Part shown: piece after piece, positions 31,001 through 37,000 of the stretch
Layout of the letters: each line of letters opens with the position of its first letter
Numbering within the stretch: the first letter of the stretch is position 1
From: Antedon mediterranea
Taxonomy: Eukaryota; Animalia; Echinodermata
Assembly: GCF_964355755.1 (NCBI RefSeq)
Contig: NC_092680.1
Location: forward strand, 18,237,045 to 18,301,044
Length of the DNA: 64,000 nt
Direction: 5' to 3'
Made by a program: the position numbers and the translations under genes
Notes under the pieces: model-generated
Database searches by the model: none
Told to the model about the DNA's origin: nothing
The model's input: only the letters and a program-made list of their open reading frames with translations

Positions 31001-34000
31001 GCCTTGTAGATGCAATCTACAAGACATGTTTACTGCTATAAAACATTAGGGTGCTTTTGTTATTACAACGCACCACTTGACTACAGCTGTCATGTAACAA
31101 GTTATTCTGAGCATGCTCAGAAACATAACAAGCATGTATGATTTTTTTCTTGACAGCTGCATAGATGAGTGGTGAAAATGAAATCTCCCTATAAAGATTT
31201 ATAGGAGACTGCTGTAATTTTATTGTTTATCCTGTTCTAACTGGTTCTAAATTGGTTTTCTTTTTTCAGTTTTTTTTTCTTTTTGCAAATTTTTTTGTTG
31301 GTTTTAGTTTTATGGTTGCATTTCTCATGGTTTTTACAAGCGCCTTGAGCCCTTTGTGGATATGTGCGCTCTATAAATCTTATTATTAACAAATGCTGTA
31401 TGCTATATATGCAAGGCTCAATTTACTGTCAGAGAATACAATAAACAATAAAAACGTACATTTCTTAAGTGGTAAATTAGAACAAATTTTCATTATAACA
31501 CTCAACAGCATTTAGATTGGGCTAGAATAATAATAATAATACCACATTTATATAGCGCCCTTTTCATAAGTAATCATGCTCAAAGGCGCTTTACAAGCAT
31601 TATTACCCCAGTATTTTTTTGGGATCAAACACGTATGGAAACATACTCCCATAATGCAGCCGGTAACCAGCGCAAAGTTGTGTCTAGATCTAACTGGGTA
31701 CCCATTTATACACCTGGGTGGAGAGAGGCAACGTAAGTAAAGTATCTTGCCTACGGATACAAGCAATGCGGCGAGAGTTGGATTCGAACCTAGGTCTGAC
31801 AATCGGTAGTCCAACGTCCAACACACTGCGCCACACGCCCTTACTAGAACATTAGCTTGTGGGTTAGTATCAAGCTACTTCAGGGAACAATAATAATAAT
31901 AATCAAATAAAGAACAGCGCAGATAGGTTTTAGTATATAACGTAAAATGTTTATTTTTTAAAATAAAAGTGCAATTGTATTTTCCAAAATTTTGTATTAA
32001 TATTCTTAATATTGTAAATTACAGTGAATAATTGTGAAATTTTGTAATTGTATTTTCCGAATTTATTGTTGTATTTTTATAGATTTCGTTTCAATATTTT
32101 TTATTATAATACAAACATTATTAGCTATGTGCTTTTGTAAATTTTATATTTACCGTAATAAATAAATAAAAAAACAAGGTAAACCAAGCATGCGGATATC
32201 TATGTCACTAAACCTGTCTTACTTTTGTTGAATGTTTAAATGTTATAATTTTTTTTAATAAAGTGTTTTATTAAATTTTACCTACAGTATACTATCAATA
32301 TGAAATGTTCATTAAACTGATTGCTATAATTATATGATAGTAAATATTAAATGCATAATTTACGATGATGTTTACTTACTTTCTGAAATTGCCTCCATTT
32401 TTCTTTTTTATAACACTGAGTAGGATTGCGAAAGAAATCCTGAAGAGACCAGAATTTCCTGTATAGAATGTAGTCAATTGGTTTCTCTGTCTTACTAGCC
32501 TCTGGCACAGACACATCCATATTGGAATTATCTAACTGAAAATATAATAATATTTTGACAGTTTGTCTGTCAGTCCAGTTGCTATGACAGTTAGTTTCAT
32601 TATAAGATAATAGTCTACCAATCCCAATATAATAGAATAGAGTGGTTCATTTTTTTTGGGTGTAAATTTCACATAACAATCTTTAAATATTACTGTACAT
32701 CTCACACAGGAAGTGGTTTGTACTGCAAGCGTTCCAGAAACTTTTATATGGCGGCCTACTAAACACGGTTCCAAGAAGAAGCCACGGCCAGCCCTCAGCA
32801 TTACCTCTGTCCACTACTGTACCTCAGCCCCACCATTGTTGGTAAGCTGAGGTAAGAACATTTAGGTCACCGGATATTGCACATGTTTGGGAGGGTAAAA
32901 ATTGCACTGATCTACTAGTCAAAGCTAAGAAATTTCAGCGCAGCTCGAGTCTCCTCAAAACACACAGGACATCATGACACTGTGTCCACCAAAGGATTTT
33001 ACATTATACAGTTTCGCGATTTGATTCATGGACAAAACAACACAACACAAAATCTGAAGATTCAATATTTTTTTCAATTCCATAAATGTTTTGCGGCCCA
33101 TCCTAATTTGCAGAACATCAGTCTATGGTGGACCATCCCGGTGAATTGCTATAAGCTTAGTATATATGTCAAAATATTTTTTAAGCCACTATACTAATAA
33201 AATATATACAAACTTTTATGGAAACCAAAATGTATTTTCCATTCAAGAGTGTTTTTATATTCAACAACACTTTATTAAACTGAGAAAAGCTTATTTTATC
33301 TATCTTTATAATGGTACTTACTGATAGTGAGACATCCGAATCTGTTGTATTGAAGGTGGTTACATTGGCCAAGTTAAACTGACTCATAAGATTTAGACCT
33401 GCAACAAATACAATTAAACAAGATATGCTTTAAAAATTGTCTAAATGATCTCTGATTGACAGATGAACCTAGACATTTAAAAGAATGTGATGTACCCATA
33501 TATGGACATGATGATGTCATATTTGGGCATACCACTAACATATTTGGGCACATCACACTTTTTTGTCAAACTAGTTTGATAGTGTAGACAGAGCTTTATG
33601 TAAGATTGTACAAACATGAAGATGATTTATACTGACCTGATCTTTCATCTAATGGAAAGAATCTTGCCAGAAAAAGTTGAATTCTTCCACAAAACACAGT
33701 ATTTTGGGATTTTGATAACCGTCTTAACAAATCTGAAAGAAAAAATAAAAACAGTTGAATATAATTATCTAATATACTGCAAAATATTGTAAAGCTCTGC
33801 CTACATCAAACTAGTTTGAAAAAAAAAGTGTGAAATGCTCAAATATGGTGTTGATGTGCCCAAATATAGTAATGATATGACATCATCATATCCATATATG
33901 GGCACATTTTTTTGTCACATAAAGTTTGATAGTGTAGACAAGGCTTAACATTTTCTTCACATTTCTTTTGTGATTATATAATTATTAATTTACAGAAGAT

Positions 34001-37000
34001 CAAAGACAAAACAATTTAAAGCATCCTACTGTAGGCATGTAACACATTAAAAAAAATGTGATGTAACCATATATGGACATGATGATGTCATATTTTGGCA
34101 TACCACTACCAAATTTGGGCATACCACTACCATATTTGGGCATATCACTACCATATTTGGGCATACCACTACCATATTTGGGCTGAAAATTTCATAATAT
34201 TATTACCGTTACACATTCTCAGGATGTAATTTCTACCAGCTACATAAAAGGTATCCTGAAAGAAAAAACAAAATTAATTTATTATTTTTGTTATACTTAT
34301 TTTTATGTCATACACATCCAAACCATATTGTGATAAGTGTCATTTGAGGATTGGGGAGTGTAGTAGAAACAATTACACCTCTAGTACTAGGTCAGAATTG
34401 AGCCCTGAATTTTGGGGTTGGAAGGTAAGCATGTTAACAACCAAGCTACAGCACTAATAGAAAAAAACGCATTTCTAAAAACACACCTAAAAAGCCGAAG
34501 AACTTTGATAAATCGCGGATTAATACTATATAATACTGTACTAATAGGGGCGCTGCTCTACAACTAGAAAAACTACTCCTAGCAACCTCTAACATCTAGT
34601 CATTGCCAGATGAATATTTGTTTAAAACAAGTCGAAACGTCACACAGTTACGTATTTATTAATGGTTTAACGTAAAGAATTGTATACGGATACAGTAGTT
34701 AATATAAAACCAGATGAACATATTTTTTGAACACACCTAATGTTGAACATTATCTTTATCTGAACTTTGAACTCACCGATTTCCAAACCATAACCTGAGC
34801 TTCAACAAACTTAAACACTTCTTTGCATGTTTCTATGGTAACAGTATCAAAGAGATCCCCTAGCAACAGGAAAGGCGTGTAGGCCGAGGCAAGAGAATTT
34901 TCAACCGCATCGATGGACAATTGTATGACACGTAGATATTCACTATGCTGGCATTCTTCAACCTAAATGGATAAGTTGGATAAGTTCAGTTGGTCTACAG
35001 CATTGTTCAAACAAAATAAATAAACATCAATATTCATTGCGATACTGTAATATTTACGTATCATCAGATGAAACTATAATTAATTGTGGAAGGAAAAACA
35101 TTTTTTTTTCCTTCACATGCATCCAACAGCGAGTGACTCGCCAATTACAGGATGGATAAACTATTTAATACTCTATCATGCTTTTAAACTAAGTCTCATT
35201 TGAGGCTTAGGGAGTGGCGTTGAAAGAGTCGTGTGTTATAACACTGGCAGTATGTCAGGATTGAACCCTGGACCTTAGGATTAGAAGGCAAGCACATTAA
35301 CCACCAAGCTACAGCTCCACTAATACTGTTACCAATTTTGTCTTAGTAATAAAAATTGTTTAACATATAGAAGAAAATGTCCCTTTTTTAAACATTTAAA
35401 TATAGTTGCTTAGTAGTGGTTGCAATGGCTGAATGGAGTGGTCACTTGTTTTATGAGTGGCCGGTGGCTAATGGAGTGGTCACTTGTTTTATGAGTGGCC
35501 GGTGGCTAATGGAGTGGTCACTTGTTTTATGAGTGGCCGGTGGCTAATTGGATATTTCAGTTTAGTTGGGTGTTTTAGTCACAACTACTGTAATATTTAA
35601 ATTATTTGATACTTACAACTAATTTCCATAACACATCCCGAAATGCTTGGTCCAAAGCAGGTTTTTTTTCATTGTCACTAAAATATAAATATAAATATAT
35701 GAAAAACAGATACATAACATTTTGGTATTATTTTATACATTTTTTGTTAAATTAATTTATGCACCTATCTTAGGAGTTAGTAAAAATTTACAATTAAAAA
35801 AAAATATTCAATCTAAAAAAATAAAATATTTAAGGCCATACATGCATTTTAAAAATAAGGAATACTTTAAATAAAAGAACAAGGAGATGTTGGTAGAGGG
35901 ATAATGGAGTAAAGGCTCCGTGTTCATTCTGAATGGAATGATCTGTTATTAGAAACTCATTTTACTAAGCCGAATTCATTTACAAATCTTAGGTCTGCTA
36001 ACAGTACGTTTTCTGGCCCAGACTTCTGTACGTTGACAAAACGTAATTCATGTATGTTTTTTTAAACATCCTTATGATTGTCCTGTGAGTTTGAGCATTT
36101 AAAGTTATTAGCTCAATCAAACAAATGCCACAATAATGAACTCCCTGGGTGATTCTGTAATAAGATTGCAGTTTTAATGAACATGACATTCAAACCACAC
36201 AGGTACTTCGCAATAACAGACATTTCGAATGAACTTTTGCCTAATAGTTGATTATGACAATAAATGTAGGCTCAATGTTTAATCTTTTCATGGATTGTAA
36301 ATGTGCAATCCACAGGATAATCGCTTTCAAAATCTTCTACCCACTCTGGTAGTGTGGAGTCACTAATTCAAGGCGATGGATGTACACTGAGTGAGAGTGG
36401 AACATTTTTTCACCGCGTAAAATCCATTGATAAAAACTCTTGTATAAACAGAGGCATACTGTATGTGGAAAAATGGTGGCTATGCTTATACACTGTGGTG
36501 TCTTTTTCGATGAATTTTAGGCAATCATAATAATTGTTCTAATTTTGTTCCCATCATACAGGGATGTATACCAATCTTTTAAGAACATTTTATGATTTTT
36601 TTTAACATGGTGTCTATAAATCCCCGGAAAACACTACATAATTTTGGTTTTTTATGCTCGGCTAGTCTAACTGTTTGTCATCTCTGCAAGTATGGCTTCC
36701 GTAGCTCACGAAAATCTTATAATCTTTGTCAAGCCTACCTCCCATCGAGTGATGCAGTAGATTCAACAAGTCCTTTTAGATCTTTGTTGGGTAATGCAGA
36801 CTGTATAGCTACCTACAGAAAATAAATGTACAGTGTATTATCTATCTGTAAAATTAAACTTCACTCTCAATGTGATCATAGGGGATGTGCAAATCAAAAA
36901 GTCCCTAATGGCTAATAAATACTGTTCTGTATTTGCAGTCTACACTACAGTTTATATACAGATCAGTCAGAGTAGTTATTAGTAAAAAGGATGTACCCCA

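What the first reader, a model, noticed from the sequence alone, without database searches (positions are those of the whole stretch)
32691..33145. Candidate undescribed structured RNA of about 455 nt in THOC1 intron 7 with an H/ACA-like 3' end
Seen on minus, the same sense as THOC1. (1) UCACCGG(G)AU 33144-33135 pairs with AUCCGGUGA 32875-32867, closing a multibranch domain of about 280 nt. (2) Inside are GUCCACCA/UGGUGGAC (33133-33126 with 32991-32984), AUGUUCUGC/GCAAAACAU, an uninterrupted 14-bp stem with five G-U pairs (GAUUUUGUGUUGUG 33054-33041 with UAUAAUGUAAAAUC 33008-32995) and UGCGCUGA/UCAGUGCA. (3) A 15-bp hairpin UACCUCAGCUUACCA-ACAA-UGGUGGGGCUGAGGUA (32854-32820). (4) A hairpin GGCUGGCC/GGCCGCC, hinge AUAUAA (ANANNA), a further hairpin and ACA plus 3 nt, about 155 nt before the 3' splice site. 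The wobble pairs work only on the transcribed strand, arguing for RNA-level selection rather than a DNA palindrome. Established: a large 5' domain plus H/ACA is the layout of animal telomerase RNA and U17/snR30, and G-U stems target some scaRNAs to Cajal bodies. However, I find no CUAACCCU template and no U17 m1 motif. Inference: a new long sno/scaRNA-like RNA, or a cis element for feedback control of this TREX subunit, analogous to the NXF1 intronic CTE.
Basis: partly seen in the sequence, partly recalled or inferred. Interest (0 to 1): 0.8.

Follow-up and report, generated by a model that had tools for sequence, protein, structure and literature searches.

The report
Possible long snoRNA in feather-star intron
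A single-copy, GC-richer 455-base stretch inside an intron of a feather star's RNA-export gene THOC1 is predicted to fold into several helices and ends in the two short boxes of H/ACA guide RNAs, so it is possibly an uncatalogued long small-nucleolar-type RNA, but it is not telomerase RNA or U17, and neither a free RNA nor conservation in a relative could be shown.

Summary
The helices, the ANANNA box and the final ACA are at the stated places in intron 7 of THOC1 of the crinoid Antedon mediterranea. For a discrete element: the highest-scoring GC segment of the intron (33143-32693) matches the proposed ends within 2 nt; it is single-copy in three DNA runs; hairpin 3 is the most stable of 4960 non-repeat 45-nt windows of the gene; four natural alleles lean towards keeping the fold (P=0.05). 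Against: whole-fold z -0.9 and explained by GC; the two-hairpin H/ACA part folds worse than 196 of 200 shuffles; a 14-bp wobble stem arises in 9.5% of shuffles and vanishes with one allele; its one RNA-type contig looks like intron background; no relative in 79 non-crinoid THOC1 loci, no Rfam family. Telomerase RNA, U17/snR30 and wobble-stem scaRNA fail their defining tests. Verdict: orphan intronic H/ACA RNA about 0.42, old repeat remnant or neutral DNA about 0.33, splicing element about 0.15. The Anneissia intron would decide it.

The parts
32691..33145 (-). Whole element: single-copy GC-richer island (43% against 23% and 27% in the intron flanks), candidate intronic RNA
33135..33144 (-). 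P1 5' strand; pairs with 32875-32867, or alternatively (33149-33136) with 32711-32697
32867..32875 (-). P1 3' strand
   Evidence: p 0.94 in the 5' domain under all allele sets tried
32984..33133 (-). P2 sub-domain; closing helix 33133-33123/32994-32984 is 11 Watson-Crick pairs with the natural allele at 32992; inner stems are not robust to alleles
32995..33054 (-).
32903..32942 (-). 8-bp hairpin stem (p 0.98) with a 24-nt loop; no pseudoknot partner longer than 5 bp before P1 closes
32820..32854 (-). Hairpin 3, 15 bp, -21 kcal/mol; followed at once by ACAGUA (32820-32815), a second H- or ACA-like box; its 5' arm can also pair with a repeat at 32806-32794
32750..32793 (-). Hairpin 4, ending directly before the H-like box (z +0.1)
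32744..32749 (-). H-like box AUAUAA (ANANNA)
   Evidence: sequence
32697..32743 (-). Hairpin 5, weak (-4.6 kcal/mol); holds AAACCA at 32719-32714, 16 nt before the ACA
32691..32696 (-). ACA plus 3 nt, proposed 3' end
32805..33053 (-). Cryptic 249-nt exon with in-frame stops between the best-scoring cryptic acceptor and donor of intron 7 (rival reading; inclusion not seen)
33322..33398 (-). THOC1 exon 7 (upstream host exon)
32380..32535 (-). THOC1 exon 8 (downstream host exon)

Best explanation
The 455-base island in THOC1 intron 7 is likely an intron-encoded, so far orphan H/ACA-type RNA that would be trimmed out of the spliced intron and would act by base-pairing to a pre-rRNA or snRNA target. 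Shown: position, single copy, GC island, boxes, predicted helices. Inferred from known H/ACA biogenesis: dyskerin, NOP10, NHP2 and GAR1 would load on hairpin 4 plus H box and hairpin 5 plus ACA, fixing the 3' end at 32691; occupying the last hairpin would free the 5' end to form P1, which would stop 5' trimming near 33145. The loops of hairpins 4 and 5 would carry the antisense elements, and the 280-nt 5' domain and hairpin 3 would be a non-guide extension, as in snR30. A shorter mature form (about 110-170 nt, the 3' part only) is about as possible as the full 455 nt. No target was tested.
For: The GC segment found from composition alone is 33143-32693, against the structure-based ends 33145 and 32691; it is the top GC segment of the gene that is not repeated within the window. 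Depth in 3 of 3 DNA runs laid is single-copy at 85% likeness, unlike the repeat in intron 6. Hairpin 3 ranks 1 of 4960. Hairpin 4 ends directly before ANANNA, and hairpin 5 ends 2 nt before ACA. P1, P2 and the 32942 stem persist under all 5 allele sets folded. Of 4 allele differences in the element, 2 turn a Watson-Crick pair into G-U, 1 repairs a U-U mismatch to give an 11-bp perfect helix and 1 breaks a terminal pair; summed stabilisation P=0.051 against random substitutions. With the two stabilising alleles the 5' domain has z -2.8 (0 of 100 shuffles; alleles picked by me, phase unknown). Indels: 0 in 455 nt against 4 in 511 nt of flanking intron (P about 0.08 by hand).
Against: Whole-fold z -0.89 (19 of 100 shuffles as good), explained by GC. 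The H/ACA part folds worse than 196 of 200 shuffles; hairpin 5 is weak and short (47 nt), and 13 of 776 other ACAs pass a filter that it misses. Intron 7 has 34 ANANNA and 15 ACA matches. The 5' domain folds at least as well on the other strand (z -1.7 against -1.2). In the full-length fold the 5' end pairs with the last hairpin (p 0.93), which would block the ACA hairpin unless proteins bind first. SNP density is not lower than in the flanks (4 in 455 against 3 in 511). The one contig of the RNA-type run over it (32742-33272) does not match the proposed ends, and five other THOC1 intron stretches have like contigs. No Rfam family. No relative in 79 THOC1 loci by blastn or nhmmer, nor in 52 of the 79 by a one-sequence covariance model; none of these loci is crinoid.
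Confidence: 0.42

Rival explanations
1. An old, low-copy transposon or SINE remnant, or neutral GC-richer DNA, whose helices are partly chance and partly inherited from the element; it makes no stable RNA.
For: Folding is explained by GC. Of the 15 GC segments listed for the gene, 6 are mostly repeated within the window and another looks like a tRNA-type SINE (that label is my reading). The two ends are imperfectly complementary, like decayed terminal repeats. Excess depth of one-copy size over about 40 nt at 32820-32860 in 3 of 3 DNA runs points to a related piece elsewhere in the genome (inferred from bin arithmetic, the piece was not seen). No depletion of SNPs.
Against: No multi-copy signal at 85% likeness, no second copy in the window, no clear target-site duplication, ends only about 14 of 21 alike (by hand); allele test leans to structure; island ends coincide with P1 and ACA+3.
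Confidence: 0.33
2. A cis-acting splicing element: a stop-codon (poison) exon and its folded context, by which THOC1 message would be sent to decay or held back, a feedback loop of the kind known for the TREX factor CHTOP.
For: The best cryptic acceptor (33053, 8.4 bits) and best cryptic donor (32804, 7.0 bits) of intron 7 both lie in the island, score like the gene's true sites (leave-one-out medians about 7) and frame a 249-nt exon with stops; only 5 such pairs exist in the gene and this has the highest GC. Hairpin 3 pairs a weak acceptor (32846) with a donor-like site (32822), and its 5' arm can switch to the stronger donor. CHTOP autoregulation: PMC5175361, search listing only.
Against: The RNA-type run joins exon 7 to exon 8 directly, its intronic contig runs unspliced across both sites, and it shows no extra cover over the exon. 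The scoring matrix rests on 15 donors and 16 acceptors. Pairs as good as the short exon occur 40 times in the gene. The island extends about 90 nt and 110 nt beyond the exon.
Confidence: 0.15
3. A DNA-level control element (enhancer or antisense promoter) that binds transcription factors; the folding is incidental.
For: An ETS-like site (32707) and a YY1-like site (32748) lie 40 nt apart on the plus strand, each the only plus-strand match in the window (motif labels recalled).
Against: CpG observed/expected is 0.53, the median for the gene; the sites cover a small part of the island.
Confidence: 0.07
4. Telomerase RNA or a derived paralogue hosted in an intron.
For: Size and layout (closed 5' domain, one short helix, H/ACA end without CAB box) resemble the description of feather-star TR (PMC4712671, passages and part 2 of the text).
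Against: No template within one mismatch and no 6-mer of it on either strand of intron 7; no pseudoknot; no telomerase model hit at E up to 10; a TR with template/pseudoknot domain is described for the crinoid Anneissia japonica.
Confidence: 0.03

Closest known systems
Intron-encoded box H/ACA snoRNAs and scaRNAs (definition from PMC2664660 and PMC7601244, passages)
   Same: Sense-strand intronic position in a housekeeping gene; hairpin, ANANNA, hairpin, ACA plus 3 nt.
   Different: About three times the usual length if the 5' domain belongs to it; weak, short 3' hairpin; no CAB box in a terminal loop; no target tested; no Rfam match.
snR30/U17 (SNORA73)
   Same: Long variable 5' part, extra internal hairpin, H/ACA end; one AAACCA hexamer.
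   Different: No m1 core on the RNA strand; the m2-like word reads AAACCAC and lies 16 nt, not 7, before ACA.
Echinoderm telomerase RNA (PMC4712671, PMC8480181, passages)
   Same: Length range, P1-closed 5' domain, simple central helix, H/ACA end.
   Different: No template, no pseudoknot; intronic.
Wobble-stem box C/D scaRNAs U90 and mgU2-47 (PMC4041459, passages)
   Same: A stem with G-U pairs, three of them consecutive.
   Different: There the stem is terminal and mostly wobble, in a C/D RNA; here it is internal, 5 of 14 wobble, allele-dependent, with no consensus C box.
AluACA RNAs and snoRNA-ended lncRNAs (named in PMC4914119, passages; structural detail recalled)
   Same: Long intronic RNA protected by an H/ACA end; may derive from a repeat.
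   Different: No repeat family identified; only one end is snoRNA-like.

Membership tests
Box H/ACA sno/scaRNA | H box (ANANNA) in a hinge after a hairpin | tested here: met
   32749-32744 directly after hairpin 4; 34 ANANNA matches in the intron, so weak alone
Box H/ACA sno/scaRNA | ACA three nucleotides from the mature 3' end | tested here: inconclusive
   ACA 32696-32694 at the island edge; the mature end was not mapped
Box H/ACA sno/scaRNA | Two stable hairpins | tested here: inconclusive
   hairpin 4 about -14, hairpin 5 -4.6 kcal/mol; the pair folds worse than 196 of 200 shuffles
Box H/ACA sno/scaRNA | Pocket 14-16 nt from the box with complementarity to rRNA or snRNA | not testable with these tools
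   no animal rRNA or snRNA could be fetched
Box H/ACA sno/scaRNA | Stable RNA bound by dyskerin complex | not testable with these tools
   only contigs of one guessed RNA run
H/ACA scaRNA | CAB box (ugAG) in a terminal loop | tested here: not met
   5 UGAG/GGAG words, none in the terminal loop of hairpin 3, 4 or 5
snR30/U17 | m1 AUAUUCCUN in the 3' hairpin | tested here: not met
   no AUUCC on the RNA strand; motif from PMC7601244 table
snR30/U17 | m2 AAACCAU at the base of the pocket, close to ACA | tested here: not met
   AAACCAC, 16 nt before ACA; fixed spacing stated in PMC2664660, the figure of 7 nt is recalled
Animal telomerase RNA | Template of 1.5-2 telomere repeats | tested here: not met
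   TTAGGG assumed for Antedon, not checked
Animal telomerase RNA | P2b/P3 pseudoknot inside P1 | tested here: not met
   no partner longer than 5 bp for the 32934-32911 loop before P1 closes
Box C/D wobble-stem scaRNA | C and D boxes with terminal stem | tested here: not met
   one imperfect C-like word at 32975; D-like words sit in stems
Box C/D wobble-stem scaRNA | Terminal stem mostly of alternating G-U/U-G pairs | tested here: not met
   internal stem, 5 of 14 wobble, lost with one allele
Any Rfam 15 family | Score at gathering threshold | tested here: not met
   0 in the window; best weak hit mir-8, 19.4 bits against 47
Young transposon or SINE | Many similar copies in the genome | tested here: not met
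   single-copy depth at 85% likeness in 3 of 3 DNA runs; older copies not excluded
Poison cassette exon | Inclusion isoform degraded by NMD | tested here: inconclusive
   sites present; no inclusion contig in one run, where rare forms are dropped

The most novel reading that the evidence does not exclude
A stable 455-nt intronic H/ACA RNA with the domain layout of telomerase RNA but no template: a third kind of long non-guide H/ACA RNA in animals beside TERC and U17, with a paralogue elsewhere in the genome sharing hairpin 3, and with a 5' end that switches between P1 and the ACA hairpin so that folding links its release to THOC1 splicing.
Probability: 0.12. Interest if true: 0.7.

Novelty: new member of a known kind. 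Interest (0 to 1): 0.3.

Why it matters
Invertebrate snoRNAs are poorly covered by Rfam, so an unlisted intronic H/ACA RNA in a crinoid would be a routine addition. It would matter more if the whole 455 nt is the mature RNA: long H/ACA RNAs in animals are few (telomerase RNA, U17, some scaRNAs) and each does something other than plain pseudouridylation. If the poison-exon reading is right, it would give THOC1 a feedback loop like other export factors. On present evidence there is a real chance that it is only an old repeat remnant.

Tried and rejected
No whole genome is held. No RNA holder on record was listed; X1 is only guessed to be RNA, though it holds a spliced THOC1 contig. X1 has no cover at 32578-32739 and X5's contigs break at 32746-32749 (over the H-like box) and at 33147: not interpretable. 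Search with P0001 in metagenomes found nothing; the alignment search gave 77 loci, the best 80 of 112 matches, plus 2 in prokaryote bins and none in viral contigs. A block conserved in the matching region of 15 animal loci turned out to be an extra coding exon. Rfam on 20 of the 79 loci: nothing. One-sequence covariance model of the 3' 173 nt over the window and 52 of 79 loci: only the element itself; low power; the 5' domain was not modelled. Attempts to fetch eukaryotic 18S, 28S or U2 for target prediction failed. The element against two contaminated bins gave chance hits only. CpG enrichment: none. mir-8/200 hit (E 0.07) rejected: far below threshold, two short arms only. Hammerhead core and Sm site words absent. 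A recalled likeness of the 32942-32903 hairpin to vertebrate TR P2b was dropped because no pseudoknot partner exists. A fuzzy search for hairpin 3 in the loci timed out and was not repeated in that form. Look-ups of earlier findings by sequence gave nothing; those by words or place gave nothing on this element.

Full report
Setting. The window holds THOC1 on the minus strand from 37454 to 767. Exon 4 is 100% identical to the THOC1-like protein of Antedon mediterranea and 89% to that of Anneissia japonica, and the Antedon protein maps across all exons. Exons 1-8 were placed by their splice sites; the element lies in intron 7 (33321-32536), in the sense of the gene, 155 nt before the acceptor.

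The observation. All named helices and boxes are in the sequence, with one unmentioned C-A mismatch in the 33118/33094 stem. Their statistical weight is mixed. The whole 463 nt folds at z -0.89 on minus (19 of 100 shuffles as good) and -0.72 on plus. It is the most stable of 348 overlapping non-repeat 455-nt windows of the gene, but regression on GC leaves a residual z of -0.27. Hairpin 3 is strong: z -4.2 on minus, -4.4 on plus, first of 4960 windows. The G-U stem has z -3.0 on minus and +0.1 on plus, but the strand is G+U-rich and 9.5% of 200 shuffles contain a helix of 14 bp or more, so the strand argument is weak. The two-hairpin H/ACA part folds worse than 196 of 200 shuffles; the last hairpin gives -4.6 kcal/mol and misses a crude hairpin-H-hairpin-ACA filter that 13 of 776 ACAs in the gene pass. 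P1 has probability 0.93-0.998 in RNAs that stop at or before 32742 but 0.02 in the full length, where the 5' end pairs with 32711-32697.

A discrete island. The best GC segment of intron 7 is 33143-32693 (43% against 23% and 27% in the flanks), within 2 nt of P1's first base and of ACA plus 3. Among 15 GC segments in the gene it is second, and first among those not repeated in the window; 6 of the 15 are mostly self-repeats. It has no second copy in the window and single-copy depth at 85% likeness in the three DNA runs laid, all from one sample. In those runs two bins carry a surplus with the same ratio (2.07-2.09), which fits one further single-copy piece of about 40 nt over 32820-32860, that is hairpin 3. 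This is arithmetic on bin depths; the piece was not among the rows shown, and AT-rich bins also show surpluses.

Alleles. Four substitutions and no indel fall in the element; the flanking 511 intronic bases have three substitutions and four indels. On the RNA strand, the changes at 33092 and 32890 turn Watson-Crick pairs into G-U, the change at 32992 repairs a U-U mismatch and makes P2 an 11-bp perfect helix, and the change at 33038 breaks a terminal pair. The summed ensemble change is -5.8 kcal/mol, P=0.051 against random sets of three transitions and one transversion. P1, P2 and the 32942 stem survive all five allele sets folded; the inner stems of P2, the G-U stem included, are replaced by another fold when 33092 changes. 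So the outer frame is robust and the wobble stem is not.

Expression. Five runs hold the stretch, none on record as RNA. X1 holds a spliced THOC1 contig joining exon 7 to exon 8 and one intronic contig, 32742-33272, which starts 127 nt upstream of the proposed 5' end and stops 51 nt short of the 3' end. Laid on 20 kb of the gene, the same run shows five other intronic contigs of 274-523 nt among the 8 longest pieces listed. The contig is thus what unspliced RNA or DNA would give; it neither shows nor excludes a stable RNA.

Relatives. No crinoid or other echinoderm intron 7 could be fetched. 79 THOC1 loci from other eukaryotes, some of them animals with the same intron positions, gave no match by blastn or nhmmer, and 52 of them none by a one-sequence covariance model. 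The only conserved block in the matching region of 15 related animal loci is a coding exon. This says the element is not deeply conserved in place; it says nothing on crinoids.

Known families. Rfam gives no hit at threshold in the window and only weak ones locally. Telomerase RNA needs a template and a pseudoknot (PMC8480181, passages); both are absent, and a feather-star TR is described (PMC4712671, passages and part 2 of 7; its supplement PDF could not be read, so that sequence was not compared). U17/snR30 needs m1 and m2 in the 3' hairpin (PMC7601244 and PMC2664660, passages); m1 is absent and the m2-like word is altered and misplaced. The wobble-stem signal belongs to box C/D scaRNAs (PMC4041459, passages) and is not met. 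Searches for THOC1 with intronic and telomerase RNA (2 papers), telomerase RNA with Antedon (0), THOC1 with retention or autoregulation (65, 20 listed), echinoderm or crinoid snoRNAs and long orphan H/ACA RNAs showed no report of this element in the listings; THOC1 does not occur in the main text of the human snoRNA catalogue PMC4914119 (supplements not searched).

A rival found on the way. The best cryptic acceptor and donor of intron 7, scored on a small matrix from the gene's own sites, both fall in the island and frame a 249-nt exon with stops; five pairs of that strength exist in the gene. Hairpin 3 also pairs a weak acceptor with a donor-like site, and its 5' arm can swap to the stronger donor at a cost of about 5 kcal/mol. 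No inclusion was seen in X1.

Verdict. An orphan intronic H/ACA RNA is the most likely single reading (0.42), made by intron trimming and protected by the dyskerin complex; every step beyond sequence and predicted fold is inferred. An old repeat remnant or neutral DNA follows closely (0.33), then a splicing element (0.15), a DNA element (0.07) and a telomerase-RNA relative (0.03). One alignment with the Anneissia intron would move it sharply either way.

Noticed in passing
window 32820-32860: Surplus DNA depth in three runs suggests one more single-copy locus that resembles hairpin 3 over about 40 nt; not seen directly.
   Followed up: partly
window 32846-32805 and 32846-32823 (minus): Short cryptic exons (42 nt with a stop; 24 nt in frame) whose acceptor and first donor are paired to each other in hairpin 3; the acceptor scores weakly.
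   Followed up: partly
window 32707-32715 and 32748-32755 (plus): ETS-like and YY1-like words 40 nt apart, each the only plus-strand match in the window (labels recalled).
   Followed up: partly
window 32535-32380 against L035:5200-6400 and L063:4140-4600: Antedon has one exon where other animals have two; the acidic stretch coded there is also changed in both crinoid proteins.
   Followed up: no
window 33434-33598 and 33787-34182: A very high-copy repeat family with internal hairpin and short tandem units sits in introns 5 and 6 (summed depth over 10^6).
   Followed up: no
window 31885-31555 (minus): GC-rich stretch with a tRNA-like head, probably a SINE, in intron 8.
   Followed up: no
L078:9584-11185 and L079:9614-11170: Intronless eukaryotic THOC1 genes in two genomes filed as bacterial bins (one of 20.3 Mb), probably eukaryotic contamination.
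   Followed up: no
window 36246-36768: Intronic contig at the start of intron 2 in the RNA-type run, the deepest of the intronic pieces listed; possible retained intron.
   Followed up: no
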